Below are positions 28,957-63,777 of a DNA stretch of 64,000 bases, piece after piece (position 1 is the first letter of the stretch; each line of letters begins with the position of its first letter). Below the pieces are notes generated by a model. The model was not told the origin of the DNA. It did no database searches and saw only the letters and a program-made list of their open reading frames with translations. Source of the DNA: Eledone cirrhosa. Taxonomy: Eukaryota. The stretch lies in the NCBI GenBank assembly GCA_964016885.1, contig OZ024740.1, positions 410,068,001 through 410,132,000 of the forward strand, given 5' to 3'. The position numbers and the translations under genes are program-made.

Positions 28957-29116
28957 TCCCTGAGAACTACGCCAAGGGTACACGTGTTTGTGGAATGTTC
29001 CGCCACTTGCACGTTAATTTCACGAGCAAGCTGTTCCGTTGATCGGATCAACTGGAACACTCGTCGTCGTAACCGACAGAGTACCTTCTTCTTATGCATG
29101 TACATATGTATATATA

Positions 29117-29170
<54 letters not shown>

Positions 29171-40650: not shown

Positions 40651-41607
40651 ACTAGACATGAAAAATGCGCAAGCTCAAAAGTGCCACAGAATGTTATAAT
40701 AAACCTTCAAAAGTGTGGGACTAGAGTTGTTGCTAAAAAATATTGTAATCGTTATATATCGTACATTCTGTGGCATCCTTTATAAAAATAGCTTAAACCA
40801 ACGAAGCCTTTATTTTTACGCTATTTCACTTAGTTAATTCTTAGAGTGTAACATATAAAAATAAATACATCTATGTTTAATGTAATAACAGCTATAAATA
40901 ATTACGTAATATTATTATCATATACTCATAGTAACAAAATAATTGTGTTGAAAATTAATATGATGCTTATATGAACGATCAAATCTATAATGATAATTTC
41001 TTTAATATACTAATAGTAAAATAATTTAGTTATCTATTGTTACATTTTCATAGAACTATAATATTAACAATCGTATTGCATTATCAAATTTTTATCACTA
41101 CAAACTTTCATATTGGAATTACCTTAAGCCACTTATTATTACTTCGCTTTCGTACTTTTACAGCTGTAGATATTGCGCTGTATCTTATATCTAATATCAA
41201 TATCTCATGGTAATTTGCATGCAGTGTAAAATAGGTTTATTAATAACTTTAATATGAAATGTATTATACAGAGCTGCGGAGTCGGCCAAAAATTGACTGG
41301 CTCCAACTCAGGATCCGATACTCCATTATTTCCTAAATTTCAGCTCCGCAGCTCTGTTATTATATTAATTAATTTATTTTATAGTTGTAAATCATATTTT
41401 TATATGTTACACTCTAAGAATTAACTAAGTGAAATAGCGTAAAAATAAAGGCTTCGTTGGTTTAAGCTATTTTTATAAAGGATGCCACAGAATGTACGAT
41501 ATATAATGATTACAATATTTTTTAGCAACAACTCTAGTCCCACACTTTTGAAGGTTTATTATAACATTCTGTGGCACTTTTGAGCTTGCGCATTTTTCAT
41601 GTCTAGT
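40651..41607. repeat. Inverted repeat with ~210-bp arms and ~530-bp spacer (MITE or fold-back)
   Basis: 40651-40863 is the near-perfect reverse complement of 41395-41607. Confidence 0.9.
41269..41356. mobile_element. 88-bp hAT-type MITE
   Basis: 13-bp TIR CAGAGCTGCGGAG/CTCCGCAGCTCTG; 8-bp TSD GTATTATA/TTATTATA (7 of 8 match). Confidence 0.8.
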
Positions 41608-42514
41608 ATATATATCTTTAGCTTTGTGAAGAAAAGTGGATGGATAGTAAGCGAAAACCTCACGCAAATCGACATGTAGTCAGGCGAAGTCAGTATGGAT
41701 TTACAAGATCTTATGATCCATCAGCAGTGACAGTGATGGGGAAATAGAAAAGAGCGGTGGATAGCAGTAAGAATAGCATGTAACTGTGACTCCAATCCCA
41801 TAAGAGTCTCAAGTGTTTGGTTTGTCTTCGGTCTTAGAAGCAAATGAGCAAGAATCGTCCTTTCCTACAACCAACAGCCCTACCACGTACTTTTGTGACA
41901 ATGAGGACGCAATAGAGACCGGAGAGAAGAGGAGAAAAGGAAAAAAGGAGAAAAAGTTGAACAGGTCAACCCAACTGGAAGTCACGTAAAACGAAACGCA
42001 ACCAGAAGTTGACAAAGAAACATTTTTGATTTGTCGCATGCAAAGTATATTAATGGACACTTGTGGATGTATAAAGCTCCAGTGAATAAAATGGATAGCA
42101 GGCGGAGACACGAGGCTTTCTAATTCGTCCTAAGCAGTAGGTTCTCACCGGTATGCGTGTGGAAACTGTAAATGTTTTGTATTGACCTTACCTTACTTAA
42201 TATCTTATTTCATTAATCATGTTTTCTCCCTACTTATCTATTTATTACATGGCCTTGGTCTAGTTACGAAATCTTCAAAGACAAAAAGGATGAAATTATA
42301 TCAATCCACCCAATTAAAGTTTAGAAGGACAAATAATAAACATTGATCACTTCAAGTACTTGAGGTAAACTTGAGGTAAACAGTGTTAAACTTGATGGTA
42401 AGGTTACAATTTATCAATGGCTTTTAAAAGAATAAGAATTGCCAGATTTTCACCTATCAATCTATACTTCCACCAATCGATTTTCTATTCACCCATCTAT
42501 CCATCTGTCTATAC

Positions 42515-45500
42515 CCGGAGGGTCGACTAGTGGTTCTGGACCTTGGCAGTGGTAAAGGCGGAGCGTTTAGGTTGGTAGCCGCCTACGGCACTTTCGGGTC
42601 AATGCGGCCGGACTTCTTCCATCGTCTGGAGACTTTTCTGGGGACGTCCCGCTCCTTGCTATTAGTGGGGGACTGGAATGGTATCCTAGATGCACGCTGG
42701 GACTACGTAGGGGCCTGCCCCGATAGAGAGGGGTGTAATAGCCTCAAAGGGTTAATCGGTCGATTTGACCTGGCCGATAGATATCGACTAGATTTTCCGA
42801 CTGCGCCAACCTGGACTTGGGCAAATCGTAGCGGATCATCTAGGTCGTACCTAGATAGGTTCTTAGTTAGAATTAAGGATAAGGACTTTTTAAGTTGTCA
42901 AAAATGCGCATGGTTGGCTATTCAGACCACAAATTAGTGACCTGCATGGTCAACCTTGATAGAACTCATAGACAGGGCCCCGGTTACTGGAAGCTCAACT
43001 TGTCCTTGCCGGCAAGTAGAGCCTACAGGAATCGGATTAGTACGTTAGTTAAGGAACGGTTGACTGGAGCGATCGTCAACAGCAGGTGGTGGGTATCTCT
43101 AAAGAGAGAGATTAGAGTAGTCTCGATAGAATTTAGTAAGGTTCTAGCTGCGGATAGGAATAGGAAGGAAAGGGAGCTAATAAATAGAGTAGAAGAGGCA
43201 ATTAGAAGCGGCGACGTGGCCAGAGTGCTAGCGTCGAGAACGGCTTTGAGCCAGTTTTTCGACGCGAAGCACGAAGGCTGCGTTGTCCGAAGTAAAATAC
43301 GTGCTCTAGGGAACGAGGGGACCAAAGCTGTTAGCTGGGCCCGCGTGACAGAGGCCAACAGTGGAACTAAATCCACCATCCGGTCTTTGCGAGACCTGGA
43401 TGGACGGGCGATTCTTGAGCCTAAGCAGATGTGTGAGGCCTTTCAAAGGCACTTTGCCCGACTGTTCGGGAGGGGCGGGGAGCCGGTTGGGAACGTGGAC
43501 TTCGGTCCATACCTCGACGGCCTGCCGCGCCTCTCGGACAGGGAGGCGAAGTCCTGCGAGGAGCCGATTTCGGCCGCTGAGATAGAGGACGTGCTGAGCC
43601 AATGCGGCAAACGCAAATCCCCGGGTCTCGATGGTCTTCCTTACGAATTATATCTAGCTATGCCGGACTTGTTCCCCGATCTCCTCGAGGCGGTCTACTG
43701 CAACTGGCAACAGAACGGGAGAATTCCCTGTACTGTGACCAAGGGTGTAGTCACGCTAGTGAGGAAGGACGAGAACAAGGGGGACGAAATAAGTAACTTC
43801 AGGCCCATAACTCTGCTAAATACAGAGTTACAGATTTTGGCCAAGGTGCTAGCAAAGAGATTGGCGCTTGTCGTGGGCAACCTGGTGGGAGATGCGCAGA
43901 CATGCGCTATCCCGTCCAGGTCCATCCATGACAACCTCCACCTCATGCGATACATCATAGAGAGGGTTGGGAACGAACCCGGCTTTGGTGGGGCTCTGAT
44001 CAACTTGGATCAATCTAAGGCGTTCGATAGGGTCGACCATGGTTACCTGGATGCGGTGCTAGCGGCGGCAGGCTTCGGACCCGTTTTCAGGGGCTGGATC
44101 ACTGCTATGCACAGCAGCCGCATCTGCTCTAGGGTCAAGGTGAACGGCTACCTCTCGGGGCCGTTCAAAATCGCGCGGTCCATCCGACAAGGGTGCCCTC
44201 TCTCCTCCCTTCTGTATGTGTTGACTCTCGAGCCACTACTGCGGAAGTTGGAGTTGTTGCAGGGCATCCCTTTGGAACCGGGATTGCGGAAAGCGGTGTC
44301 GGCCTACGCCGATGACGTGACAGTAATGGTGTCGACGGCCTCCGAAATCGAGGCGATCGGCACCTTACTGGAGGAGTACGAAAAGTTCACAGGGGCTAAG
44401 TTGAACCGGGACAAGTCGATCGGTTTGCAACTCGGCACGTGGAGGGGCAGACCGATGCCCTCCGATGGCGTCGTCGGACGCTGGACGGAGGGCCCGGTGA
44501 AGTTGCTCGGGGTCTGGTTCGGACCGGACCTCCAGGTGGAGAAAAACTGGGCGGAGGTTACGAACAGGGTGTTTGCACTGACCCAGAAGTGGGCCAGTTG
44601 CAAACTATCCCTGAAAGGTCGGGCGGAGGTGGCGAACACCTACATAGCGTCCGTTATCTACTACCGCCTGACCGTAGTGCCCTGCCCAAGGGAAACCCTC
44701 ACCAAGATGGAGCGCGCGCTCTTCCAATTCCTTTGGAAGAGGCGGGCTCCTATGGTGAGGAGATCCATCTGCTGTCAACACCCTTCGAAAGGAGGGCTGG
44801 GGATGCCGTGGCTAATGATGCGTAAACACGCATTAAGGCTATGGTACCTCTACGTATTCCTCACCGGACAACCGGTGTGGGCCTCGTTTGTGAGACGAAC
44901 CTTTCCCAGACTCGTCTCACTCACCGAGCTGCAATCCTGGGTCAAGCAAAGACCGAGAAAACTGGGCGCCTGGCACACTGAGTGTGCCCAGACGCTCACC
45001 GCCCTCTGGCAGGCGGATCCGGTTATCAGTGGAGACTCTACCGCAACATTCTATAGAGGGCTGGTACGCAGCAGGTGCGACGACGCCCTCGGAGAAGCCC
45101 TAGACATGGAGGAGGACGAACTGGCCGGCCTGTTCGGTAGGACATTCAGCCCGGGACCTATGGACAACTTCCAGAAGTCCCTGGCCTGGCAGTGCTACCG
45201 AGGAGCTTTACCCGTTCGAGAAAGGCTCTACAGACACGGGCGCCCGGGTAGGGACCCCGCCAAAAAGATCTGTCCCAGATGCGTGTGCGACGAGGAAACC
45301 GTTGCACACGCATTGGTACACTGCTCGGGCGTAGCCGATCTGTGGGGCTATGTCGAACAACTGCTGTCAAGGGTGGGACCGATCCGGTTGACCACCGAGT
45401 CTATTGTAATGATCAAGCCGCCTCCCCCCTTCAAAGATGAAGCAGAGGCGGTGTTTCTGTGCGTAATAGCCATGGCGAAAGAGGTTGTATGGTGGACGCG

Positions 45501-46005
45501 TCTGAAAGGACTGAGGTCAGGCACCTTTCTCTCTGGCCAACAACTGGTCCGTTTCTTCCGATATCATTTCGGAAGAAGGATCAGGATGGAGAGAGAGGTG
45601 CTGCACCCCAGTCGTTTTTATGAAAGGTGGGTGAAAGTGGCGAGAATGGCCCGTGTGAATGGGCCTTCTCTTTACATGAGCCTGTAGGTGGAAGAGAGGA
45701 AGGAACGAGGGAGCACCCCCTCTCTGTGCTCCTGAGGAAAAGGGTTGCACACTTTTTTCGGGGGTGTGTGCGACCCCCCAAGGCGCCTCCTCTCTATTGA
45801 GGATTTTGTTATAAATTTTATTTTTTGTTATATTTTATAACAAAATCCTCTATTGAGGATTTTGTTATAATTCTATTTTTTGTTATATTTTATTTTATTT
45901 TTATATATTGTTATTGCCTCCTCCCTATTGAGGACGCCTTGTTTTGTAAACTCCCCCCATTGTACTTGTCCCACTTTTGATACCCTTGTGGCAAATAAAA
46001 GAAAC
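42515..46005 (+). mobile_element. Tx1/L1-clade non-LTR retrotransposon, 5'-truncated within the APE domain
   Basis: GC-rich island; APE (VGDWN, SYLDRF, SDH), RT and CCHC; 3' UTR ends AATAAAAGAAAC then (TATC)n. Confidence 0.93.
42895..45687 (+). CDS. Tx1-like ORF2 (end of APE, RT, zf-RVT), 930 aa open; upstream APE part 42530-42937 in another frame
   Basis: PGYWKLN, KSPGLDG, NFRPITLLN, DQSKAFDRV, RQGCPLS, YADD, LLGVWF, GGLG, CPRC..ETVAHALVHC. Confidence 0.92.
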   Translation: MSKMRMVGYSDHKLVTCMVNLDRTHRQGPGYWKLNLSLPASRAYRNRISTLVKERLTGAIVNSRWWVSLKREIRVVSIEFSKVLAADRNRKERELINRVEEAIRSGDVARVLASRTALSQFFDAKHEGCVVRSKIRALGNEGTKAVSWARVTEANSGTKSTIRSLRDLDGRAILEPKQMCEAFQRHFARLFGRGGEPVGNVDFGPYLDGLPRLSDREAKSCEEPISAAEIEDVLSQCGKRKSPGLDGLPYELYLAMPDLFPDLLEAVYCNWQQNGRIPCTVTKGVVTLVRKDENKGDEISNFRPITLLNTELQILAKVLAKRLALVVGNLVGDAQTCAIPSRSIHDNLHLMRYIIERVGNEPGFGGALINLDQSKAFDRVDHGYLDAVLAAAGFGPVFRGWITAMHSSRICSRVKVNGYLSGPFKIARSIRQGCPLSSLLYVLTLEPLLRKLELLQGIPLEPGLRKAVSAYADDVTVMVSTASEIEAIGTLLEEYEKFTGAKLNRDKSIGLQLGTWRGRPMPSDGVVGRWTEGPVKLLGVWFGPDLQVEKNWAEVTNRVFALTQKWASCKLSLKGRAEVANTYIASVIYYRLTVVPCPRETLTKMERALFQFLWKRRAPMVRRSICCQHPSKGGLGMPWLMMRKHALRLWYLYVFLTGQPVWASFVRRTFPRLVSLTELQSWVKQRPRKLGAWHTECAQTLTALWQADPVISGDSTATFYRGLVRSRCDDALGEALDMEEDELAGLFGRTFSPGPMDNFQKSLAWQCYRGALPVRERLYRHGRPGRDPAKKICPRCVCDEETVAHALVHCSGVADLWGYVEQLLSRVGPIRLTTESIVMIKPPPPFKDEAEAVFLCVIAMAKEVVWWTRLKGLRSGTFLSGQQLVRFFRYHFGRRIRMEREVLHPSRFYERWVKVARMARVNGPSLYMSL

Positions 46006-46006
46006 A

Positions 46007-46065
<59 letters not shown>

Positions 46066-46156
46066 ACATCCATTTATGTATGTATGTATGTATGTATGTA
46101 TGTATGTATGTATGTATGTATGTATGTATGTATGTATGTATGATTGTATGTATGTA

Positions 46157-46620
46157 TGTTTTGTACCAGAGTTTTCAACTCGCTGGCTGGACTAAAAAAT
46201 CACACTCGTTCAGCACATCGTTAGGGGTTCTCCTACATGGATATAAAGTAGTGGCTCTACTCGAAAACGAGTTGGCAGCCACCATGTATGTATGTATGTA
46301 TGTATGTATGTATGTATGTATGTATGTATGTATGTATGTATGTATGTATGTATGTCAGGTCACCAGTTGGTGCTACTGGTAACATGTATCCCAGTACAAC
46401 CTGTCTTATGGTCGGGTCGTTGGCGACTAAACTGGCAACCCCACCAAGGTTTCTTGGTGAGGAGGGTGACTTTGGACATCCTGCAGGACTAAAAACAAAA
46501 CCTGTCAAAGGGCAAAGGAGCTCTTAAGAGTCAATGGCCATCCAAAATCACCGGGAGAGATGACCCCTTAGCCTTTGCCAAGGCAGAATTCTAGGAGAAG
46601 GAAAACTCTGATATAACACC
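46157..46620 (+). mobile_element. Two pieces of the non-autonomous RTE derivative (3' piece 46157-46285; internally deleted copy 46354-46620), each with (TATG)n tail
   Basis: Match to parts of 51424-52018. Confidence 0.85.
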
Positions 46621-46708
46621 ATGTATGTATGTATGTATGTATGTATGTATGTATGTATGTATGTATGTATGTATGTATGTATGTATGTATGTATGTATGT
46701 ATGTATGT

Positions 46709-49700
46709 TCTTATGATTTTATAATTTCACAAAGTTTTACCAATAGAGAGAGAGTCGGTTTCTAACCAACTAGGTATATATGTATGTATGCATGCATGTG
46801 TAGATATGGATGTTATTGTATGTGTGGATGTGTATGTCTTGAGTTGTATGTGTGCATGTGTATATGCTTTGTATCTGTACATGTATATATGCAGTTATTA
46901 GATGCAAAATGTTTGGAATCTTTTACATATTTTTACTGTTCCATTAATGGATTGTACTTGTAATTTCCTAACTAGTTGTGTTCTTTCTGTTCCTGTGAAG
47001 CCTAGCTTCTCAAGATTTGTATTGAGGCAGTTACTAACATACCCCAGTGCCCCAATAATCACAGGCATAAATCTGAAGGTGTAATCACGGTGGAGTATCT
47101 ACAGATTTCTCATCAGTTCTGCATAAATATTCTCCTTTTCACTAATCTTTGATATTATATTGGCATCTGCTGGGCAGTTAATTTCCACTACTGTGCATGT
47201 TTTCTTCTCCCTGTCCCATATCATAATATCTGGTCTGTTATGCCTGCATTTTATTGGGTTTTTTACTGGAACATTCCACCGGTACTCTTTCATATTATGT
47301 ACATGGATGTCTTCCACATTGTTGTAGCTTTTAATGTGTTTATTATCGGGGCTATCTTTTTTACAAACTGCATTGTACAGTGTTTTGCCCACTACATCAT
47401 GCCTCATAGGTAGATAGTACCGCGATGACATCTTTGGACAGCTGCTGATAACATGGGTGATATCCTCGATGTTAGTTCTGCAGAGTCTGCACTTGTTATC
47501 ACATCTAGGTGTTTTGCCTGCATCCCTATCTCTTTTGTGAATCAGGTATTTCGAGCTAATCTCCTGTTCCTGGATTGCAAAAGCGTATCCTTCAAAGTGG
47601 GAGCCAATATAGCGGTTGTTGGTCCAAGATAGACAACTTTCCTTATCTCTATTACTCGCACTCTGGAGCTTCTTGGCAACATATCCATGCATGATTTTTT
47701 GCTGATAAGCATGCAGTTTTTCATCCATGGATTCACTGCGATACTGCTGAGCGACATCCCTGGGTGTGAGTTTTTGATTATCACACAGGGAATATCTCTC
47801 ATGGAGTTCCTTCCCGACCCTCATGATCTTATCTGTTTCATGCAGATAGACTTGCTCGAGAGACGGGCTCCTACACTTCGAGGTTCGTAGATGTTGTCGG
47901 AGGGATATGATGCGACATTCAAATGTCGTCTGGACAGATGTTAAGCCTCTGCCTGTCTGCTTACGTTTCAAGTAAAGGCGGTCTATGTCACTGTTGATGT
48001 GGAAGTTTCCGGTGTTCAGTATTTTTCGAGTTCCAACATCAACTGCTCGGATTTCGTCTATCGTCCAATTGAGTATTCCAAACGTTGGTGTTAGGACAGG
48101 CACAGCAAACACATTATGAGCCGCTGTTTTGTTTTGCGCAGAGAGTTCTGATGAACATATCTTTCTTAATCGGGTGTAGTATTCCCTGGTTACGCGTTCT
48201 TTATTACAGATACCATTATAGGATATGTTCTCATCTATCCCCAGGTATCTGTAGCAATCCTCATCAGATATCGGTGAAACAGTTAGGCTATTGATGACAA
48301 TGTTGCTAGATTGGGTTGTTATTTTTCCCCGCTTTACAGTCATGTATGAGTATTTATCTTGGCCAAACTCCATTCCTATATCCTTTGAGAACGTTGTAAC
48401 CAGGTCAAGATTTTTCTTCATCCCATCCATGTTCTTGGCATAGAGTTTCAGATCGTCCACAAAGAAATTATGGGTTAGGTTCGTATTTCTGTCCTCCTGT
48501 GAGCCAATGATGTATCCCTCACATTTTTTGAGCAGAAAGGACAAGGGGTTTAATGACAAGATGAACAATATCACAGAGAAACTGTCCCCCTGAAATATAC
48601 CCCTGCAATATTTTATTTTATCAGTGAAAATAGAGTCCTCCCTCTCTGTCTTTAACCTTAGGATAGTAGCCCAACAAGAAGACAGCCTCTCTATGGCTCT
48701 GACAATAATGTCTGGAACTTTAGCAAGTTGGAGGGCCTCTATCATCCAAGAGTGCGGAACAGAACCGAAAGCTTTCCTGTAGTCCAGCCAGACTGTAGTC
48801 ATATTCCTCCTAAGTTGTCGCACCTCCGACATCGCAGTTTTGTTGATTAGGAGTTGTTCAGCACATCCCCAAACCCCTTTCTTTCCAGCTGCTTGTTCAT
48901 CTGTGATGATGTTATTATTTTCACAGTGATCTTGGAGGAATAGGTTCAGACAGGCTGTATACATCTTATACATCAGGTTCTGGCATGCAATGGATCGGTA
49001 GTTTTTGCCAAGTGGGTGTCTTTGTTCTTGGGGACCAGTAATGTTTGTGCTAATGTCAACCATTCTGGTATAAGTGTATCTCCCTTAAGAACTTGTTGTC
49101 AGTAAGATACCTCCGATAGAATATCAGTTTTTTGTACCAGTAGCCGACAATCATGTCTCTTCCTGGTGTTTTCTTATCTTGGAGTTTTCCTATCACAGTC
49201 TCAAGGGTACCCTCACTTATTTCGTATGTTTTTGTTGTAGTGTAGGAGCAATAGTTCTTTCGGATTCCTCTTAGCCACACTGCATCTTGGTTGAAATTCT
49301 TCTTTTCACCCCATATTTTGCTCCAAAAGGAATCTATGTCTTTCTGGGATGGGGCCTCAGTGACGCTTATTATTTTGCCCTTCATATCTCTATAGACTGA
49401 TGTTTGGTTTCGTCTGAATCTTTTATTAAGCACTTTTCTCTCATCTACCTTCTTCAGGTATCGGCGTTTTTCGCTAACAGCTTTCAATTCTTGTTTGAGG
49501 GTGATCAGCTTATATTGGAGAGTTTTGGTTCTACTGTTACCAAACATCGTCTCTATTTTATTTTTCACTCTTTGTTGGTGAGGAGTGAGGTTTTTGTGTT
49601 TGTTTTCATGTAAGGAGCATTGTCAAATATCCTATGTTTTTTCGTAGGTCAGCAATCTTTTTTTCTATTTTAGTTATATATGATGGTATTTTTGGTGGTG

Positions 49701-50760
49701 TTTTGTTCTTGTTAATATCTCTGCTATCACCAAGATAATGCTTCACTGTCGTTGCTAAGGCATATAAACAGGCGTTGGCCAAAATGTTGGGGTTTTTATC
49801 CGTCGTAAATATTCATCTCCTATTTCGTCAATATCACGTAGTATTTCATTATTTGGTTTTTTATTCAACATTGTCGTTTTAACACGTTCAGCAAGAGAGA
49901 TATTTATACATGAGTTAATTTCTCTCTGGAAGATTTCGTTAAGGGAAATTTTCAATTGTTTATACTTTTGATTATCATTATCGATAGTATTTTCCACAAC
50001 AGTCGAGGTAGACTCGGATGGTACACGTGGTGTCACATTTATTCGATTATTATTATTATCGATAGTGTTTTCCCCAGCATTCGAGGTAGACTTAGATGGT
50101 ACAGGTGGTGTCAAGTTTCTTACAGGCATAGTTGTTTCAAGGCGCTGTTCGACCTGGCTGCTAGGAAGTCTAGTAGCATGGCAACCTGTAGCACGTGTTG
50201 TTGATAACATATTTGTTGTTGGGGATTTACAATTAATAATATTTATCTTATTTTTACGTCCAACAAACGTCGCTTGTTGGCGTAATTGTTGCGCTGTGAA
50301 ATAATTTAGCTCTAGGTGCATTTCGTCCCAGTGTAGCTTCATTCTATTCATATAGCCAATGGAGGGATTGTTTTTTGTCATTTTATAACAATTAAATAAA
50401 TCATTATTAAGTTCGCAACTCCAAGAGAAATGCGATTTATAATTTCGGTTTCTTCTGTAGCTACAACTGAATAAAGTTTGATTACCTTCCTTGTTATTTG
50501 TCTTCGGTACTTCCTCAATCTTTTTGTTGATGTTGTGTTCAGCCATGCTGTTTGTAGCAAATCCTTGTAAAATGAATTATGTATTTAGTCGGATATCTCT
50601 ACGAATTCGAATAAAAGGTGTCTTCAGAAGGGATAGTTAGAAGAATAACCAGTTATTCAACCTGACTGTAGTTGTGGCATTACTGTCGGAGATAGTATTC
50701 ATCTTAAATTTAATAAATAGTCTCCCACGCCAAAATATGCGACTGATCGCGTTGACTGTC
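46709..50760 (-). mobile_element. Near-full-length R4/Dong-like RLE retrotransposon, frameshifted
   Basis: ORF pieces 49755-50546, 49056-49568, 47099-49063: FVDD RT, CRLC..HVISSC, RHD, RPDI..VVEINCP..K..Y endonuclease; (CATA)n on both sides in element sense. Confidence 0.93.
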
Positions 50761-50792
<32 letters not shown>

Positions 50793-50830
50793 TGTATGTA
50801 TGTATGTATGTATGTATGTATGTATGTATG

Positions 50831-50864
<34 letters not shown>

Positions 50865-50896
50865 TGTATGTATGTATGTATGTATGTATGTATTTA

Positions 50897-51390
50897 CGTC
50901 AGGTCGCTCTCGAGTGCTACTGGTAACATGTAACCCAGTACAACCTCTCTCATGGTCAGGTCGTGGGCGACTAAACCGGTGATATTTGGACACCCTGCGG
51001 GATGAAATACAAGACCCGGCAAAGGGCAGAGGAACTCAGCAGTGTCAACGGCCATTCAAATAGTACTTTTTTTTCGCCTGGGAGTGAAAGGCCCCCAGTT
51101 GTTGTTACAACACCTTTCTAAGAGAGGGGAACTCTGAAAAAAACAACCTGCGGCTTCGGCAGCATCCGATGATGTTGACCAGATCTCCGTTTCGGGTAGT
51201 GTTTTCGATGCACAGAAAGTGGGATTAGTCGAGTGCAAGGCCTTCCCCCACTTAAAAAACCTTCTAAGCACAGGCATTGCTTGTTCAGGGTCTGTTACAG
51301 GTTCGTGTGGCTAGCCGTAGCCTAAAGGTGCACCATTTTCTGTAATCTGACAAGCGATTGCAATACTCTTAGCAGAGTTTGCAGCTATCA
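50897..51390 (+). mobile_element. RTE-type 5' UTR fragment, second subfamily
   Basis: Homologous start GTCAGGTC..GTGCTACTGGTAACATGTA.CCCAGTACAACC..GGCGACTAAAC; flanked by (TATG)n. Confidence 0.7.
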
Positions 51391-51423
51391 TGTTTGTATG
51401 TATGTATGTATGTATGTATGTAT

Positions 51424-52120
51424 GTCAGGTCACCAGTTGGTGCTACTGGTAACATGTATCCCAGTACAACCTGTCTCATGGTCGGGTCGTTGGCGACTAA
51501 ACTGGCAACCCCACCAAGGTTTCTTGGTGAGGCGGGTGACTTTGGACATCCTGCAGGACTAAAAACAAAACCTGTCAAAGGGCAAAGGAGCTCTTAAGAG
51601 TCAATGGCCATCCAAAATCACCGGGAGAGATGACCCCTTAGCCTTTGTCAGGGCAGAATTCTAGGAGAAGGAAAACTCTGATATAGAACCTGCAACCGTG
51701 ATGGTATCCAATGATGTTGACTTGTTCTTCTTTTTGGTAAATATCATCTTGGTTAAGAGAGTGGGACTGGCTTTGTGCAGTGCCTTTGCTCACGGCACAG
51801 GCATTGCTTTATATCTGGAGATCTCTCTGCACTTGTCATCACATGGTACCATGGGCCCAGCACTATGTGTCAGTAATTGTCACAAGTGTAGTGTTTGTAC
51901 CAGAGTGTTCAAGTCGCTGGCTGGACTAAAACGTCACACTCGTTCAGCCCATCAGTAGGGGTTCTCCTACATGGATATAAAGTAGTGGCCGTACTCTAAA
52001 ACGAGTTGGCAACCACCATGTATGTATGTATGTATGTATGTATGTATGTATGTATGTATGTATGTATGTATGTATGTATGTATGTATGTATGTATGTATG
52101 TATGTATGTATGTATGTATG
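51424..52120 (+). mobile_element. Bipartite non-autonomous RTE derivative (~595 bp + (TATG)n tail), most complete copy
   Basis: 5' UTR fused to a 3' end that retains a C2H2 remnant CSVCTRVFKSLAGLKRH; further copies at 46157-46620 and 53235-54209. Confidence 0.8.
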
Positions 52121-52149
52121 CGATCATTCTACACATTATCTAGTACCAT

Positions 52150-52660
52150 AGGGTCCTCCTATGGTGCTGACATGCAACGTCTGTGCGAGACTCTGCCTAA
52201 GCAAAGCTGGACTCGAAAGTCATCTTCGCAGTCATAAAGTAAGACCAGTGGTTGACCAGGCTGCTGTTGGAGATGCTACTCATCATGCTTGCCAAGCATG
52301 TGGTAGAGAATGTAAATCAGCAGGAGGGCTCAAACGACATGCAAAAGTACATGAACTCCAACCACAGCCGGCTATTCCCAGTGAATATTTTGGTTGCCGA
52401 CTCTGTGCAAGACATTTTAGATCATTGGCTGGGCTAAAAAGCCACATTCGATCGCAGAGCTGTTAATTGCTATCGTGTGTGTGTGTGTGTATAGATGTGT
52501 TTATGTGTGCGCGTCTGTGTATATATATATATGCATATTATTATCGTTGTTGTTGTCGTTATTATTATTGTTATTAATATATATATATATATATTTTTTT
52601 TCTCGTGCAATGGCCATACTCGATAACGAGGGGGCAGCCATCATGTATGTATGTATGTAA
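52150..52660 (+). mobile_element. 5'-truncated RTE-clade LINE 3' end with three C2H2-like fingers
   Basis: CNVCARLCLSKAGLESHLRSH, CQACGRECKSAGGLKRHAKVH, CRLCARHFRSLAGLKSH; 3' end CTCGATAACGAGGGGGCAGCCATCATGTATG. Confidence 0.75.
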
Positions 52661-53234
52661 GTATGTATGTATGTCAACATATGTGTCTAACATACTCTTT
52701 TCTATATCTAAATGTTTATATATGAAGTGGTATGGATATTTACGAGCGATCTCAGTTATTTTTTTACAAATGAAAAACAAAAGAACCTAGGCCTGTGTAT
52801 TTACATACGCACACAGATAAATGTATTTACGCATATATGTATAAACGTCATATTTCCTCTTCTACTTGAACTTGGCGTTATAAATTGTTGAAGAGAATAT
52901 AATTATAAGAACAATTGTGTTAAATATTTAAAATTGTAATTAAGACAGCGTTATCCTGGGAGAATGGACAACTGTTATAATGCAGTAAAAACCATAATTC
53001 GACTATTTTCATACATACATACGTATGTTCATACATACATACGTACGTTCATACATACATACGTACGTTCATACATACATACATACATACATACATACAT
53101 ACATACATACATACATACATACATACATACATACATACATACATACATACATACTTACGTACATACGTACTTACGTACTTACATACATAAATGAATACAA
53201 ACATACATAGTACATACATACATACATACATACA

Positions 53235-54209
53235 TGGTGGCTGCCAACTCGTTTTAGAGTACGGCCACTACTTTATATCCATGTAGGAGAACCCCTACCG
53301 ATGCGCTGAACGAGTGTGACTTTTTAGTCCAGCCAGCGACTTGAAAACTCTGGTACAAACACTACACTTGTGACAATTATTGACACATAGTGCTGGGCCC
53401 ATGGTACCATGTGACGACAAGTGCAGGGAGATCTCCAGATATAAAGCAATGCCTGTGCCGTGAAGCTTTTATAGTGAGCAAAGGCACTGCACAAAGCCAG
53501 TCCCACTCTCTTAACCAAGATGATATTTACCAAAAAGAAGAACAAGTCAACATCATTGGATACCATCAGGGTTGCAGGTGTTATATCAGAGTTTTGCTTC
53601 TCCTAGAATTCTGCCTTGACAAAGGCTAAGGGGTCATCTCTCCTGGTGACAAAGGCTAAGGGGTCATCTCTCCATACATACATACATACATACGTACATA
53701 CATAAGTACATACGTACTTACATACATACTTGGTGGCTGCCAACTCGTTTTCGAGTACGGCCACTACTTTATATCCATGTAGGAGAACCCCCACCGATGC
53801 GCTGAACGAGTGTGACTTCTTAGTCCAGCCAGCGACTTGAAAACTTTGGTACAAACACTACACTTGTGACAATTATTGACACATAGTGCTGGGCCCATGG
53901 TACCATATGACGTCAACATCATTGGATACCATCAGGGTTGCAGGTGCTATATCAGAGTTTTCCTTCTCCTAGAATTCTGCCCTGACAAAGGCTAAGGGGT
54001 CATCTCTCCCGGTGATTTTGGATGGCCATTGACTCTTAAGAGCTCCTTTGCCCTTTGACAGGTTTTGTTTTTATTCCTGCAGGATGTCCAAAGTCACCCT
54101 CCTCACCAAGAAACCTTGGTGAGGTTGCCAGTTTAGTCGCCTACGACCCGACCACGAGTCAGGTTGTACTGGGATACATGTTTCCAGTAGCACCAACTGG
54201 TGACCTGAC
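53235..54209 (-). mobile_element. Two copies of the non-autonomous RTE derivative (53235-53672 5'-truncated; 53730-54209 internally deleted)
   Basis: Reverse complement of 51424-52018; tails read (CATA)n on the plus strand. Confidence 0.85.
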
Positions 54210-54244
54210 ATAAGATACTTACATACATACATACTTACATACAT

Positions 54245-57200
54245 ATAATGGCGACCGTTGTGGTCAGTGTCCGATAATCGGACGTGTGTACTTACGGCTT
54301 ATATGAAGGCAACATACCATATATTGGAAAAAGTTGAGCTACATTACGCGGTAAGATTACATACAATAATTCTACATAAGTGTTTGAACTGTAAGTGTGT
54401 TGTAAAACACCTATTTATATGAACAATACATACACTTATGATATATGAACGATACATACACTTTAACATATAAATGCAACGTTGTTATATTACATTTATA
54501 AAGAAATATACAAGTAACGTTTTCGATTCAGAAACAAAAACATAAGTGTTTGAACTGCGAATATGTTGTGAATAAGTTGTAGAACACCTATTTATATGAA
54601 TGATACATAAACTTTAACATATAGATACAGCGTTGTTATATTATATTACATTCATAAAGAAATATACTAAGTAACGGTTCTTTTTGTTCTCGATTCAAAC
54701 GATTCAAGAACAACGTTTAAAACACAGTTGTAGAATTAAAAACTAACTGAAAAGAAATATTACCCAAGCTGTGAATAACTTTAAATTTGATTCTGACAGA
54801 ACTTTGTCGAAACTTTTAAAGAAGATCATCGATTATTTTGAAAAATAAATACGAAATATTAGTGAATAGACGAACTCATCATGGCAAAAAGTACAAGTCT
54901 CCTTCGACCAAATCGCGACTACAACCGCTGTAGAGCTACGAGCTTAACAAGGTATTATATGAAGCATACAAACAATCTGAACCCCAAAAGTTCGGTTTTA
55001 TGCAAAGGCTAAAAACTTTATGGAACTCCAAACACCCAGAATTAGACTTTTCTCCAAAGCATTTAAATGAACAGGCAAAACGTATCATTAGATGTAAATT
55101 GATACATCTAACGGAATTGAGTGATACTACAAATACAGCCCTTGTAGACAACCACCCCACCTCCACTGACAGACAAAGAGGATGGTCAGCTAAATCTAAC
55201 AGTGAACAGCTCACCAACAATTTTGCTGAAATCCATCCCACTTCCACTGAAGAACAGCGAGAAAGGTCAGCTAACTCTAGTAGTAATTGTCACCACATCA
55301 ACAATGAGGCTGAAATTCATGACTCTACTGAACAAACAGAGCACCAAAAACTTGTGGACACCCTACAAGTGATATGGAACGATATGTTTCAAGAGATACA
55401 CAGCCTTAATGTGAGTGACAGACCATACAACACTAGAATCAGTAAAGAACCCACTAAATTGGAATTGGAAGCGGTGAACGAAATAGTTGGCAATTATCTG
55501 AAGGCTATACGATCTAAAGGTGTAGAAACGACATTTGAAACGCTTAATGTTTTGTTATATGTTTCAGCTGTCACATTGCTATCATATAACACACATCTAA
55601 AACCACGCAATCAAGATACAAACAGAAAGCCTGAACCAGCGTGGATGCGAAATTTAAAAACCAAAATTTTGTCCCTTAGACGAAGTATCTCATACATCGC
55701 AGTCGTTATGAAATACAACATAGAGAGCAACTTCACACGACACCAGGAAAACCTAAAGAAAAAGTTAGAGAGACGATTTGGAGATACAAAATTTAAAACT
55801 TTGAACTCCAAATTACACCAGTTGAAACAACAACTCACAGCTACAACAGAAATACTAACATATAAGTCAATAAGACATAAACGACAAGTGCTAAATAGAT
55901 TGTTTGCCAGAGATCCTAAATCAGTTTATGGCAGCTTCGGTGGCAAAAGCTCAATCCCTGTAAACGACACCCCTTCAAAAGAACAGGTTGAGGGCTACTG
56001 GAGATCTGTATGGGAAACGGATGACGGATTCAACAGACAAGCTAATTGGCTAAAAGAACTGGAACAGGACTACTGCCAACATGTCCAGACAAAACAATAT
56101 GACATAGATGAGTCAATACTGGAAACAGCTCTACAGAAAATGTCGAATAGGAAATCGCCTGGCCCAGACCTCATTACAGGATACTTTCTATCGGCAAGAT
56201 CTCATGCGGCTGTTTACAGAAACCATTAAAGGCACACAAGAACTGCCCAGATGGTTATCAACTGCCACTACTCTTCTCATTCCCAAAAATAGCCAAACCA
56301 CCCTTGCTAAAAATTACCGCCCGATTTCCTGCCAAAACATCATGTATAAATTATATACTGGGTGCCTTAACCTGTTCTTACAGGATCACTGTGCTACCAA
56401 CAACATCATAACACCTGAGCAAGCTGGTGGAAAGAGGGAGGTGTGGGGTTGCATAGATCACCTACTAACTAACAAAATGATTCAGGAAAAAACAACAAAG
56501 AATCGCAGAAACATGACTGTGGTGTGGCTGGACTATCAAAAAGCATTTGATAGTGTACCTCATGGGTGGATTATTAAGGATTTACAGTTAGCTAAAGTCC
56601 CACAACCATTGGTAGCTGCTGTTGAACGCCTGACCAAGAACTGGTACACCAATTTGATCCTTAGAGGTGAGAAGGAGCAGGTTAAGACTGATAAGATACA
56701 TTACCAGAAGGGCATCTTTCAGGGTGATAGCTTGTCAGTGCTACTCTTCGTTCTCTCACTGAATCCACTATCTATCTTACCTACTCAGGAAACAAGGTGG
56801 ACAAAGAAGTGGGCCCAGAAGTATCTCCCATCTTTTCTTTGTTGATGACCTGAAGTTGTATGGGCCAAATATCAATGACATCAAGAAACAATTGGACCTC
56901 ATTACACAATTTTCAACCGACATCAAAATGAAATTTGGTGAGTCCAAGTGTGCATATTTGGCAGTAAAACGTGGAAGAGCTGTGCCCTTCTCTAGAAATC
57001 TAGAGATGAACGGCCTGACAATACAACCTCTGCAGTCAGGTGACAACTACAGATATCTTGGACAGGATGAGAATGTCAGCTATGATGGACCCATAAATAA
57101 GGACAGAACCAGAACTGAATACATCAGAAGAGTAAAGAAAATATGGTCATCAGAACTGTCAGCGTACAACAAATACATTGCCAACAATACTTATGCTGTG

Positions 57201-58451
57201 CCAATTCTAACGCCAACATTTGGCCTGCTGAACTGGTCATTGCAAGAACTAAGTGAGATGGATTTTAGAACTCGAAAACTTCTCAGTGTTACTGGGAACT
57301 TTAACATCAATGGTGATGTGGATAGGCTATACTTCTCACGCAAGGAAGGTGGCCGGGGTCTAAAATCAATATTAACAACATATGAGACCCTGATAGTAAC
57401 ACTGAAGCAACACCTTCAACAGAGGAAAAAGGTTGGCAACCATCTTGCCCAGGTTTATGAGGATGAAAAAAAAATATCATTAGAATAGCGACTGATCTGG
57501 AGGAGAGATATGGAATAAAGCCTGATATAAATCTCCCACCCAGAGAAATCGGAAGATCCTACTCAATGTTCAAACAAGATAAAAAAATTGACCAATTTAC
57601 AGAAAAAGTTGTGCATGGATACTTGAGGCGTAAAACACAGACCATAGAGGGGATAAACCACTCAAAAAGCCTGGCATGGAGTTCCGACAAGTTTATGACA
57701 TCACACCTTGAGGGATATCTCTATGCAATACAGGAATAAGAACTCCCTACCAAATATCTGCTGCACAAAAGAGGAGGGCCAGCAGCTGACAATAAATGTA
57801 GGCTATGTAAAACAAAGATCGAGGATGTAAGCCACATTGTTTCCAGCTGCGCAAGAATGTCATCTCGCTACTACCTCCCCATGAGACACGATGGGATAGC
57901 TAGAACTATCTGGAACGCACTTCGGAAAACAAAATTAACAACAAACGAGGAAGAATATATTGAGACAGATGGCACTAAGGAATACTGGTGGAACCTGAAA
58001 ATAAAAACTGCCACCAAATTAAAGCACAACCGGCCTGATATTGTTGTTTGGGACCACACATTGAAAACGTGTTCTGTTGTGGAGATCAGCTGCTCACTTG
58101 ATGTAAACGTTGTCAGAAAAATACAGGAGAAGGAGGACATCTACGGACCATTGATGAAGAGTTTACAAATCCAGTATCCAAGATACACCTTTAGCTTCAT
58201 ACCCATCATTATTGGAGCTACAGGTTATATACCAACCCGCTTGGACCAAAGTATGACTGAACTTGGATTTGCGGACAAAAAGCGCAGCTCCCTAATTCAT
58301 AGTCTACAAATGGCTGCGATAGCTGGCACCTTCAAAATTTGTAAAACATTCTTGCGATTCAAAGGATGACAATTTCTTTTCTTTTACAACCTTGCCACCA
58401 GGAAGGTGGCCGGTGAAAAAAAATATACTCGAAATTAAGAGAAAGAGATAA
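54245..58451 (+). mobile_element. Near-full-length R4/Dong-like RLE retrotransposon, second family, frameshifted
   Basis: Coding ~54881-58369: KSPGPD, NYRPISC, WLDYQKAFDSV, IFQGDSLS, FVDDLKLY, CRLC..HIVSSC, RHD, RPDIVVWD..VVEISC..KEDIY; (CATA)n both sides; ~165-bp tandem duplication in 5' UTR (54373-54700). Confidence 0.93.
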
Positions 58452-58851
58452 CATACATACATACGTACATACGTACTTACATACGTACTTACATACATAC
58501 ATACATATGCACATACAAAACCAAACAAGTAAACAGAAGCACATAACACCATATTATTCTATTTATATGTAAAACTAGCTACCATTTTCTTACCGGAAAT
58601 AGCTTTCTCTTCTTTTACTTCTCAGACAATTAGTTAGTCATATTTGTCTAATTGATGTTTTATTTTATTACTTCCTTATCAATAACTGTAAAAAGTGTCG
58701 TTGTTAATTAGAAAACCTACCAAGTGAGACAACTACACTGTTTGCGAGAAAGTTAAAAAATTAGGTCAACGCTGTTTACTAGCATGCATCTCTTGAATGA
58801 CATGAAATTCCCTGCGGTATTCAGTTACGTATGTTTTCATTGTGTATTTAA

Positions 58852-59135
58852 ATAATTGTTTCTACGTTTGGCACAAGGCCAGCAATCATCCAGTACATTA
58901 CTGGTACTCTATTTTATCGACCCCGTAAGGATGAAAGGCAAAGTTAACCTCGGCGGGATTTGAACTCAGACTGTAAAGGGATGTAACTATGCTAGAAAGC
59001 ATGGCGTCCAACCCTCTACCGATACTGCCAATTCACCGCCTGTGTATTTAAATATTTAAATAATTGTTTCTACATTAGGCACAAGGCCAGCAATTACCCA
59101 GTGCATTACTGGTACTTTATTTTATCTACCCCGTA
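58852..59135 (-). mobile_element. SINE family 1, one full and one partial copy
   Basis: Reverse complement of consensus. Confidence 0.8.
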
Positions 59136-59472
59136 AATACCACCAGTGTCTACTTTGCCATTGATTATCCGCCTCTGAACTTGATGAAATAAGATAAGCT
59201 ATGTACTGAGGTCGATTCACTCAACTATCTCTCTCCTTTATAAATGGTTGCTCTTGTGCTAAAGTTATAAATGGATAGTAGTATTGTATATGAATATTAA
59301 TAGTATACCTTTATAGATAAGGTGTAGAATTATCCCCCGAACCATAAGTTTTCTTTTCTTCGGTGCCACTGTATAAGGCAAAACACTTGACATTCAAATG
59401 ATCTAATGTAGTGCATCACGTACGTAGATGCCATAACTTAAGTGTCAAGACTTAGGTATACTTGCATATCTT

Positions 59473-59639: not shown

Positions 59640-61787
59640 TCTTTAAAATTACCCAAGACATCTCCAACGAGATATACCTTAGAGGAGGCCAGCTAAACCT
59701 GCATAGGTGTGAGCTGTCACACTCACATACTTTGCCATGACATATGAATAACATTCCTCCATTAAACAGCGTGAGCCTTGTATAAAATGGTAGACTTATT
59801 GCGTCACCCCGATTAACACCACTACCTAACTATTCACCTCCATTAGTAGAATCCATTCTATTTAAGCATTCGTAACAGGTCTAAAGTTTGAAAATATCTC
59901 ATGAGTTGTTATTTTCTATCCTTTCTACCTAGTCTTGAAGGTCTTACATAACGATCAGGGGTGCTACTCTTTCTCCTTGAAGTCACGAAAAATATAAAAA
60001 ATAACTAGGAGTGTTTCGTTAGCGTGAAGTAAACGAATCAATGTCACTTGGAGAAGTGGGGTTTTACTCTGTTGAAACGCCCTCAAGAAATACAGGGCCA
60101 TGGGATATATTTTCAATTTCCACAACTATCTTAGTTAGTTAGTAAATATACAATTTAATACGGATTCATTATTTTGAGAATGTTAGAAAAATACGTCCAT
60201 TTTAGTAATTGTGTTAAATTTCTCGCGTGTCTATGACTATCATTCGATTGCATAATGATACAGGACAATGTGAATGTTCAAATTGATGTCAAGATTTTAA
60301 AGATACTTAATCTGTGGATTTAATAAATTGAATCCTCCAAAAATTTCATTTGTTTATGGTCTAATAGAATCCGAGCTGGATTTCTTCGGATAGAAGTTAG
60401 ACGGTGATTTGGTCCTGAGTTTTGATAGTGACCATTTCTCTTGATCTATATAATTGCGAAAGGCTTACACAAAGTGCCATTTCATTATCTTCAGAAATTA
60501 GTAATATATATATGATCTGTTGATTCTGAGTCGTCAAGCAACTGGCTCTATTATACTAGTGTACGGGATAAATAAATATTTATTCTTATTATTTACTCGC
60601 CGAGGCGAGCTTTGCCTTTCATCATTACGTGGTCGATAACATAAAGCACCAGGAACGTACTGGAGTCGATTTAGTCGACTTTACACATACCCCAAAAATC
60701 GTTGGCCTTGTGCCAATATCAGAAACCATTATTTATAACATGGCAGTATCGGTAGACGGTCGGACGCCATGCTTTGCAGCATAGAGTTACGCCCCTTTAT
60801 GATCTGAGTTCAAATCCCGCCGAGGTTAACTTTGCCTTTCGTCCTTACGGGGTCGATAAAATAAAGTACCAGTAATACACTGGGATAATTGTTGGCCTTG
60901 TGCCAAAAGTAGAAACAATTATTTATAACAGATAATCGTCATGTTTAATGAAGGGTAACACTCAGATACGTTAAACTTTAGTATTATCACAAACTAGTAT
61001 TATCACAAATCAGTATTCTCACTGACCAATTAATTGCTTTCGATGAATGAAGGTAGAATTGGTTGTTGAAATAAATAAATCAGTCTCTTTATTATGGAAG
61101 CTTGATGGGTATTTGATGGTGTAAAATTAGATTTCTGTGGTGGAAATAATTGACTTTGAAACATCGTTGAATGTCTAATTACTGCAGAGTCTACAACTTT
61201 GGATCCTAATTTCCATTTACCAAGTTCCTACACAGCTGCTCATTTAAAGAAGAATCTTGAAAAAAATCTCGATCTAATAACATTATATAGAATACAAAAT
61301 ATGCAAAATGAGTAAATAAATAAGAGAGTTGAGGTAGAACCAGTTTATGTGTTCGTGGGATCAAATCAGATGCATATGTTTCAATGTGTTACTCCTGCAC
61401 ATGTCTCACGATGGTAACACTACGTCTCTCCATCCACCTAGATTTGACAAATTGTTAGCAATTCGGTGAAAATCCTCAGTTTCATGTATACTTGAAACTG
61501 GCACTAGAAAATGTCCTCCTTAGAAATTCTCATAGCTGCTTCTTTGATTACATCACCAAGAGATGGTTTATAATCTCCAGCATATATAATTCCTTAAATG
61601 ATTTCTGATTATGTGTAGGTTAAATAGTCTGTTTAAGTGAAGGGCAAACGAAATTTAAAACAGCTAATAGAGTATTCCATTCAGAAAACCTATACTACTT
61701 TAAATATTTGCTCATTACATCCCAGCTTTACACGAGAAGCTCAACATTATCAGATGTATATCCCGATGTGTCCTTTATAAATTGTTT
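59640..61787 (-). pseudogene. Highly decayed LINE ORF2-like sequence, interrupted by SINEs at 60598-60922
   Basis: Scattered remnants only (QGERVAPL near 59960-59980, FLEAF-like near 60070-60095, SGP near 60410-60420) in RT order. Confidence 0.4.
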
Positions 61788-62998: not shown

Positions 62999-63360
62999 AG
63001 GGCGGTGGATTGGCAGTATTGGTAGAGAGTCGGACGCCATGCTTTGACGTATAGAGTTACGGCCCTTGCCATTCTGAGTTCAAATCCCGCCAAGGTTTAC
63101 GGCGTCGATAAAATAAAGTACCAGTAATGCACTGGGTAATTGCTGGCCTTGTGCCTAACGTAGAAACAATTATTACATTATACATATGCATAGAATTACG
63201 GCCCTTTACGTTCTGATTCAAATTCCACCGAGGTTAGCTTTGCCTTTCATCTTTACGGGATCAATGAAATAAAGCATCAGTTATTCACTGGGGTCGATTT
63301 AATCGACCTTCTTTTCCCCTCCAAATTGCTGGCCTTGTGCCTATAGCAGAAACAATTATT
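62999..63360 (+). mobile_element. Two SINE family 1 copies
   Basis: GGCGGTGGATTGGCAGTATTGGTAGAG, GAGTTCAAATCCC, core domain. Confidence 0.8.
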
Positions 63361-63777
63361 ACACTATACATAAAACAAAGGGTACTAAGGTTTGCCAATA
63401 AAGTTGTAAATATTTTAACATCAGAAAGGAAGAACATGATCCAATGCATACATTTGAAATAAATTTCCTTGCTGCCTACTTATGTTCAGATGATGACTGA
63501 CAAAAGTCGGAAAGACGGTGAACATCTTGAGGAGGGAGTCCCGTGAGGTGGAGTGGCTGTTGCAGTGTTAGAGTGGTGTTTTTGGCCATTCTCCACGGTA
63601 ATGATTCATCATTTTGTCCACGGGGCGCAGCTGAGGCACCGTACAGACCGTGGTGTAGTGTCTGTTCTCCCTCTCCCTTCCTTTCATTGCTTGATCCCTT
63701 TTTTCTTCTTTTTTTTCTTTTTCTTCTTCCTTGTTTTGTTCTCTCTAATAGTGTTTTGTTTTTATTAGATACTGCTC

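What the first reader, a model, noticed from the sequence alone, without database searches (positions are those of the whole stretch)
46157..58500. (TATG)n/(CATA)n ecosystem: RTE tails appear to supply the target for R4/Dong-like elements, always antisense
Seen: RTE-derived pieces end in (TATG)n and stack head-to-tail (plus strand 46-52.7 kb, minus strand 53.2-54.2 kb). Two divergent near-full-length RLE elements are bounded on both sides by (CATA)n in their own sense, opposite to the adjacent RTE pieces, and they flip orientation when the microsatellite flips at ~53 kb. The same polarity holds at 436-770, and the fragment at 2333 also follows (CATA)n. Established: Dong/R4 elements are sequence-specific, with TAA repeats as the known microsatellite target. 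Inference: a CATA-specific R4 lineage exploits tails laid down by an unrelated RTE family.
Basis: partly seen in the sequence, partly recalled or inferred. Interest (0 to 1): 0.75.

Follow-up and report, generated by a model that had tools for sequence, protein, structure and literature searches.

The report
Two retrotransposon clades share CATA/TATG microsatellites
In this animal genome (probably an octopus relative), two families of jumping genes sit almost always inside CATA repeats and face the same way, likely because their own enzyme cuts that repeat; the unrelated jumping genes thought to have built these repeats sit inside them too, facing the other way, so they are likely co-tenants rather than builders.

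Summary
The anatomy is real and holds genome-wide. Two young R4/Dong-like LINE families (51% protein identity) have (CATA)n before 54 of 57 full 5' ends, 22 of 25 truncated 5' ends and after 44 of 52 3' ends (background 2.3%). All 32 adjacent RTE ends are antisense. The claim that RTE tails supply the target fails. An RTE 3' end lies beyond only 13 of 52 R4 3' tracts, no more than RTE 5' ends beyond R4 5' tracts (19 of 57) or at background tracts (5 of 28). The RTE's own tail is (CAT)1-3. The repeat after it matches the repeat before it (p=6e-11), and one copy duplicates the TATG tract within a 94-bp target-site duplication. So RTE also inserts into pre-existing TA/TATG tracts. The R4-like families lie on a separate branch with two (CTTA)n-flanked metagenome elements, apart from (TAA)n-flanked ones. 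No paper found reports a CATA-targeting R4 or a microsatellite-targeting RTE; R1-clade Waldo targets ACAY. Repbase was not checked. Three earlier notes of this scan reached a similar reading on other pieces of this genome. Cleavage is untested.

The parts
46709..50758 (-). R4/Dong-like LINE family A, full length, ORF broken by frameshifts; RT, CCHC and PD-(D/E)xK-type endonuclease motifs
54247..58451 (+). R4/Dong-like LINE family B, full length, frameshifted; 94-97% identical in protein to a natural intact 1170-aa copy (L206)
46075..46158 (+). (TATG)n tract at the start of the stack
46160..46285 (+). 5'-truncated RTE-derived non-autonomous element N1 (3' end)
46356..46620 (+). N1 5' part ending in CACCAT, likely joined to its own 3' end by internal deletion
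   Evidence: the join is inferred
46624..46707 (+). (TATG)21 tract, read as (CATA)n at the 3' junction of A
50763..50890 (+). (TATG)n tract between the 5' end of A and the 5' end of N3 (not an RTE tail)
50897..51391 (+). RTE-derived non-autonomous element N3 (older family)
51426..52019 (+). Full-length N1 (~608 bp family), TATG on both sides
52150..52643 (+). 3' fragment of the autonomous RTE-type LINE (C2H2 fingers and 3' UTR ending in CAT)
52674..53009 (.). Unique spacer between two tracts of opposite polarity
53010..53232 (+). (CATA)n tract
53234..53649 (-). 5'-truncated N1
53731..54207 (-). Internally deleted N1 whose 5' end faces the 5' end of B
54222..54245 (+). (CATA)n at the 5' junction of B
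58452..58507 (+). (CATA)n at the 3' junction of B, followed by unique DNA with no RTE
436..740 (-). RTE-derived bipartite element N2 (5' UTR part and 3' end shared with the autonomous RTE)
767..2060 (+). Older R4-like 3' fragment (~80% to A) with a ~220-bp SINE-like repeat inside; preceded by CATA x3, ends in (CA)n
2328..4514 (+). Internal fragment of family A after a CATA-like run that follows a B-like 3' end

Best explanation
Two R4/Dong-like LINE families sit in (CATA)n in their own sense and an RTE-type LINE with its short derivatives sits in TA/TATG repeats on the other strand, likely because each enzyme independently targets pre-existing microsatellites, which would build the polarized stacks. 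Shown: junction sequences, polarity, fixed phase, independence from RTE 3' ends, and the tree position. Inferred for R4: the restriction-like endonuclease, perhaps guided by the N-terminal three-helix domain, nicks the TATG strand and primes reverse transcription at a fixed phase (element...AGA then ACATACATAC). Inferred for RTE: the APE endonuclease nicks the opposite strand in a looser (A/G)TAT context that TA and TATG satisfy and CATA does not, with the RNA's CAT end pairing to the target. Each insertion splits or duplicates a tract and leaves target on both sides, so later elements of both clades land in the same place facing opposite ways.
For: R4 5' full: CATA 54 of 57; 3': 44 of 52. Truncated 5' ends: 22 of 25 in copies chosen by their 3' end and 80 of 97 overall. 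Background 463 of 20,000. TATG polarity at 1 of 286 R4 junctions. Fixed phase after A: ACATACATACAT at 0.74-0.94 per position, n=54. Evenly spaced 900-kb sample: R4 3' 5 of 5 CATA, 5' 4 of 6. RTE N1 5': 27 of 28 in TA or TATG; 3': 28 of 29. Truncated autonomous RTE: 13 of 17 5' flanks are RY repeats by eye. RTE flank types agree on both sides: TA/TA 23, TATG/TATG 92, TA/TATG 11, TATG/TA 9, p=6e-11. L034 has a 94-bp duplication that starts in the TATG tract, and informative duplications number 39 of 190 against 7-13 in shuffled pairs. RTE neighbours of R4 are 32 antisense, 0 sense. RTE 3' ends 13 of 52 against RTE 5' ends 19 of 57 (p=0.40); background tracts 5 of 28 and 8 of 29 (p=0.58, 0.63). 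A, B and two (CTTA)n-flanked elements lie on one side of a 0.34-long branch (SH-aLRT 99), with 15 TAA-flanked elements on the other. The families overlap in age: pairwise distance A 0.048, B 0.028, RTE 0.021, N1 0.033.
Against: No cleavage was tested and no empty orthologous site was seen. RTE preference is loose: in the unbiased sample 3' flanks were TA 9, TATG 6, TG 1, CATA 1, none 2, and 9 of 27 5' flanks had no repeat. About 7 of 39 inspected RTE rows are real non-repeat 5' flanks. 8 of 52 R4 3' flanks are not CATA class. R4 shows no target-site duplication above shuffled pairs (21 of 86 against 13-19). Copies were the best BLAST matches, so they are biased to young, window-like copies. 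The background is small (32 tracts), so a 1.5-fold preference for RTE-adjacent tracts is not excluded (odds ratios 1.5 and 1.3). The library misses old RTE families, so ancient seeding of tracts by decayed RTEs cannot be excluded. The tree is a quick search without bootstrap and holds no named Dong or R4 sequence.
Confidence: 0.8

Rival explanations
1. One reading: RTE inserts at ordinary sites, appends a (TATG)n tail, and the R4-like elements colonize those tails.
For: 25% of R4 3' tracts (13 of 52) do end at an antisense RTE 3' end, and polarity is always antisense. RTEs are reported to generate microsatellites (PMC2887409). 30 RTE copies scored no repeat at 5' and TATG at 3'. N2's 5' UTR holds a degenerate TA/TATG stretch.
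Against: No excess over background or over RTE 5' ends. TA-to-TATG and TATG-to-TA flank pairs are 11 and 9. RTE 3' ends are followed by pure TA in many copies. Most no-repeat 5' rows are gaps in my library or internal deletions, and the 7 or so real ones have no long pure TATG tail. 17 of 32 background tracts have no library element on either side.
Confidence: 0.08
2. Passive accumulation: both clades insert broadly, and copies in microsatellites are kept or multiplied by selection, slippage or recombination between tracts.
For: Passive accumulation near CA repeats was proposed for Drosophila Waldo-A/B (PMC3812793). Tandem duplicates exist (L068-L071). It fits the looser RTE pattern better than R4.
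Against: It does not explain base-exact junction phase, strand polarity (1 of 286 reversed) or CATA before random 5' truncation points in copies only 2-5% diverged.
Confidence: 0.07
3. The R4-like elements write the CATA themselves: 3' read-through of the donor tract gives the tail, and template jumps add CATA at the 5' end; RTE then uses those tracts.
For: A few copies have only ACATA or ACATACATA after the 3' end (L077, L079, L083). Extra element-derived bits occur at some 5' junctions (L006, L037, L040).
Against: 5' tracts are long (medians 57 and 78 bp) and often impure or continuous with CA/TA runs. Most background tracts and most RTE-flanking tracts have no R4 beside them.
Confidence: 0.05

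Closest known systems
Dong (Bombyx mori), DongAg, DongBg and ostracod Dong1/2 (R4 clade, (TAA)n-specific)
   Same: Single ORF with RT and C-terminal restriction-like endonuclease, no N-terminal zinc fingers, inserts in a microsatellite on both sides (PMC7998251 passages; PMC3812793 passages). The nearest relatives with flanks in view are (TAA)n-flanked.
   Different: Target is (CATA)n here and (CTTA)n in two relatives. About 31-33% protein identity to the insect relatives, separated by a long branch.
WaldoAg1, WaldoAg2, WaldoFs1 (ACAY microsatellite-specific)
   Same: Their ACAY target includes the ACAT repeat (PMC3812793 passage).
   Different: They are APE-type elements of the R1 clade (cited there to a paper on R1 target specificity). 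The elements here use a restriction-like endonuclease, so this would be convergence.
RTE-clade LINEs, including the octopus RTE with APE, RT and C2H2 fingers, and bipartite non-autonomous RTEs
   Same: Same domain order (PMC9115989 passages), short repeat at the 3' end, 5'+3' UTR derivatives (PMC5786205 passages). Pairing of the 3' repeat with the target has been proposed (PMC6007223).
   Different: RTE insertion is described as not sequence-specific (PMC2887409) or as a T-stretch signature. Here 27 of 28 and 28 of 29 N1 junctions lie in TA/TATG tracts with strand polarity.
R2 retrotransposon proteins (PDB 9nl3, 9dou, 9nl2, 8gh6)
   Same: Best sequence and fold matches of the intact B protein.
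   Different: 16-19% identity in the fold alignments; R2 has N-terminal zinc fingers and targets 28S rDNA.

Membership tests
R4 clade (R2 group) | Single ORF with RT, C-terminal CCHC and PD-(D/E)xK-type endonuclease | tested here: met
   Natural 1170-aa ORF with RVT_1, zf-RVT, conserved CxxC..H..C, RH and PD..E motifs; best folds are R2
R4 clade (R2 group) | No APE endonuclease | tested here: met
   No Exo_endo_phos match in P0001 or the window pieces
R4 clade (R2 group) | No N-terminal zinc fingers | tested here: met
   No conserved Cys/His pattern before the RT in 17 aligned proteins and no Pfam finger
R4 clade (R2 group) | Diverged N-terminal Myb/SANT-like domain | tested here: inconclusive
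   Three helices at 27-39, 47-58 and 66-79, pLDDT 74-91, with a conserved Trp; no Pfam Myb hit; no profile or single-domain fold search run
R4 clade (R2 group) | RT groups with named R4/Dong elements | tested here: inconclusive
   Neighbours are (TAA)n-flanked elements and unnamed insect proteins. No named Dong or R4 sequence was available, and the Pediculus accession could not be tied to the published alignment
Dong in the strict sense | Insertion into (TAA)n | tested here: not met
   Flanks are (CATA)n; not filed as Dong
RTE clade | Single ORF with APE endonuclease and RT | tested here: met
   Exo_endo_phos, RVT_1 and C2H2 fingers in two frames of one copy; relatives are single 1030-1230 aa proteins
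RTE clade | Short tandem repeat at the 3' end | tested here: met
   (CAT)1-3
RTE clade | Bipartite non-autonomous derivatives (typical, not exclusive) | tested here: met
   N2 shares its 5' part (~86%) and 3' end (88-98%) with the autonomous element; N1 and N3 are 64-73% similar to N2 and to each other in the 5' part
RTE clade | RT groups with named RTE/BovB elements | not tested
   None of the 120 listed relatives is named as RTE; the label rests on architecture and recalled motifs
RTE clade | Insertion not sequence-specific (typical behaviour, not a clade criterion) | tested here: not met
   Strong TA/TATG preference with polarity

The most novel reading that the evidence does not exclude
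A widespread, unnamed sub-lineage of the R4/Dong group switched from (TAA)n to four-letter C(A/T)TA repeats, and an RTE lineage became microsatellite-targeting, a trait mostly known from R1 and Tx1 among APE elements. Together they cut opposite strands of one repeat, duplicate it, and drive both TE stacking and TATG expansion in this genome.
Probability: 0.45. Interest if true: 0.65.

Novelty: new variant of a known kind. Interest (0 to 1): 0.5.

Why it matters
Dong-R4 and RTE are among the largest recently active LINE groups in octopus (PMC13282606), yet the papers read give no insertion target for them. A CATA/CTTA branch next to TAA-specific relatives is a natural series for asking how a restriction-like retrotransposon changes its target, with a natural intact ORF at hand. 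A repeat-preferring RTE would qualify the view that RTEs are unspecific and only generate microsatellites. Shared targeting also offers a testable cause for TE hotspots and for microsatellite markers with shared flanks.

Tried and rejected
Rfam scan of 46000-58600 gave only sub-threshold miRNA hits on the repeats and no ribozyme. Folding the 5' ends gave z -0.40 (N1), -0.07 (B) and -2.0 (A), so no ribozyme is claimed; B's 3' UTR folds well (z -3.75). R4 target-site duplications were not above shuffled pairs. No intact ORF was found in 20 family-A copies; 1 of 20 family-B copies was intact. The first trees with RTE and Tx1-like outgroups were unusable for rooting, and a bootstrap run timed out. 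The Atlas did not hold P0001; the Pediculus homologue gave only unnamed RVT_1 clusters. No RNA holder was listed, which says nothing about expression, and no reads were laid. Library element C matched mostly an inserted SINE-like repeat and was dropped from the counts. Counts over all junctions include loci chosen for a neighbouring element, so I rely on centrally selected copies. The original Dong paper and two R4 papers were not held. The shrimp paper held nothing relevant.
Full report
Setting. The window lies on contig C1 of a 3.0-Gb genome and is 36% GC. The best-scoring named relative of element B is an Argonauta hians protein, 66% identical over the RT region, so an octopod host is likely (inference).

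Anatomy. A (46709-50758, minus) and B (54247-58451, plus) are full-length, frameshifted LINEs with RT and zinc knuckle and no APE. One of 20 fetched B copies has a natural 1170-aa ORF. Its model has mean pLDDT 82.9, an N-terminal three-helix domain, and matches R2 proteins best. A and B share 51% identity. First looks gave 1512 and 601 candidates for their 5' ends, of which 40 each were scored. The short pieces are three non-coding families. N2 consists of the 5' UTR part and 3' end of an autonomous APE-RT-C2H2 element, and N1 and N3 are related to it.

R4 junctions. Of 30 loci per search I dropped the window's own copy, identical-flank duplicates and matches that missed the end, leaving 29, 28, 26 and 26. 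The 24 bases next to the junction are CATA class at 54 of 57 full 5' ends and 44 of 52 3' ends; the other 3' ends are 4 TA, 1 CA and 3 none. Random 24-mers give 463 of 20,000. Truncated 5' ends test targeting, because they cannot carry a 5' UTR repeat: 22 of 25 are CATA in copies selected by their 3' end. One of 286 junctions has the reverse polarity (L006). The 3' phase is fixed. In 90 evenly spaced 10-kb stretches, 5 of 5 3' ends and 4 of 6 5' ends are CATA.

Do RTE tails supply the target? That model predicts RTE 3' ends beyond R4 3' tracts and ordinary DNA beyond R4 5' tracts. Found: RTE 3' ends 13 of 52, other R4 8, nothing in the library 31. On the 5' side: RTE 5' ends 19 of 57, other R4 12, nothing 26 (p=0.40). 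Background tracts of four or more units carry an RTE 3' end in 5 of 28 and an RTE 5' end in 8 of 29 (p=0.58 and 0.63), and 17 of 32 have neither clade beside them. These samples are small, so a weak preference is not excluded.

The RTE is itself a tenant. Its own end is (CAT)1-3, followed by TATG, TA or mixtures. N1 5' ends are preceded by TATG 13, TA 14, none 1 of 28; 3' ends are followed by TATG 19, TA 9, none 1 of 29. In 190 copies with both junctions, flank types agree (23 TA/TA, 92 TATG/TATG, 11 and 9 discordant, p=6e-11; 55 other combinations). The balanced discordant pairs argue against an appended TATG tail. Thirty copies scored none at 5' and TATG at 3'. Of 39 such RTE rows inspected by eye, most are library gaps, internal deletions or chimeras, and about 7 are real non-repeat sites without a long pure TATG tail. 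Copy L034 has a 94-bp duplication that begins inside the TATG tract and runs into unique DNA, so its apparent tail is duplicated target. RTE is looser than R4: in the unbiased sample TA outnumbers TATG, 9 to 6 of 19 3' ends. Pairwise distances overlap (A 0.048, B 0.028, RTE 0.021, N1 0.033; N2 0.073 and N3 0.097 are older), so the main families were active together. These values are biased low by best-hit selection.

Relatives. A metagenome scan kept 80 loci; I examined the ends of 36. The closest, L381, has (CTTA)n on both sides, L382 ends in (CTTA)n, and many distant ones are (TAA)n-flanked. The tree used 27 of 31 chosen loci and 28 of 122 proteins (55 rows, 392 columns, quick IQ-TREE, SH-aLRT only). 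A, B, L381 and L382 fall in a 21-row group on a 0.34 branch with support 99, and the 15 rows I labelled TAA lie outside it. A pairs with L381 (97) and B with Argonauta (99), so A and B are not sisters. Seventeen members of the group have no flank data, so a single origin of four-letter targeting is not shown.

Mechanism. Shown: where and in which phase the elements sit. Inferred from target-primed reverse transcription (established knowledge): the first nick is on the strand opposite the element's sense, so the R4-like enzyme would nick the TATG strand and the RTE enzyme the CATA or TA strand. After the RTE's CAT end the flank reads G/A, T, A, T (0.96, 0.96, 0.86, 0.94), which TA and TATG satisfy and CATA does not; this would explain the polarity. 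Each insertion leaves repeat on both sides, which would produce the stacks. The flip at 53 kb is two tracts with opposite polarity.

Literature. I saw passages of PMC3812793 (Dong targets TAA, Waldo targets ACAY), PMC2887409 (RTE sites not sequence-specific, RTEs generate microsatellites), PMC4640811, PMC5786205, PMC7998251 (Dong on TAA in most insects, molluscs and cnidarians), PMC8967140, PMC9115989 and PMC3124438; the abstract and passages of PMC6007223; and the first third plus passages of PMC13282606. No CATA- or CTTA-specific R4 and no microsatellite-targeting RTE turned up in searches. Repbase, the 2004 Kojima and Fujiwara paper, the Dong paper and all supplements were not seen and may record such targets. 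The labels RTE, Tx1-like and the endonuclease motif names rest partly on recall.

Earlier notes. Three unreviewed notes on other pieces of this genome reach a similar reading. I had recorded mine before seeing them, and they are not independent evidence. One mentioned CTTA, which I then found.

Verdict. A real, genome-wide pattern: a new target variant within a known kind, plus an RTE with an unusual repeat preference. The host-and-parasite story is not supported. Interest 0.5.

Noticed in passing
window 42428-46060 (+): Young L1/Tx1-like LINE (APE, RT, zf-RVT) whose 3' end runs into (ATCT)n. At least 40 copies at 99% identity. It may be another microsatellite-specific family; flanks of other copies were not seen.
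   Followed up: partly
L361 and L362, about 1.4-1.7 kb into the oriented loci: Elements with a similar 3' end (AATAAAGAAATC) are followed by (ATT)n inside the autonomous RTE's 5' UTR, and L363 has a SINE-like repeat in the same run. The RTE may supply a target to a different clade there.
   Followed up: no
L381 1-100 and 4820-4871; L382 3' end: Metagenome relatives flanked by (CTTA)n with 3' UTRs of about 1.1 kb.
   Followed up: yes
N1 and N3 5' ends, e.g. window 51423-51425: Full-length N1 copies start with a nearly invariant TGT even inside pure TA tracts (0.94-0.98; 0.74-0.87 in N3), suggesting a target-like 5' end on the RNA.
   Followed up: partly
N2 5' UTR (L037, L221, L282, L304, L305, L360): A conserved degenerate TA/TATG stretch lies inside the element itself.
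   Followed up: no
window 11411-16029: Tandem array of a 26-bp unit, about 171 copies.
   Followed up: no
window 5214-11079, 17568-24749, 27157-28052, 28954-29363, 40648-41610: Several large inverted repeats at 95-99% identity; the first two flank ORF pieces, one with a weak GIY-YIG hit (20055-20423), possibly Penelope-like.
   Followed up: no
window 21309-22882: Near-perfect 624-bp direct repeat in about 2.5 copies.
   Followed up: no
window 33-320, 1165-1385, 58849-59136, 60598-60925, 63001-63957: Very abundant ~150-220 bp SINE-like repeat; it accounts for most of the 152 hits of library element C in 900 kb.
   Followed up: no
L002/L182: Family A copy with an inversion near position 2910 and CATACA retained in front of its 5' end.
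   Followed up: no
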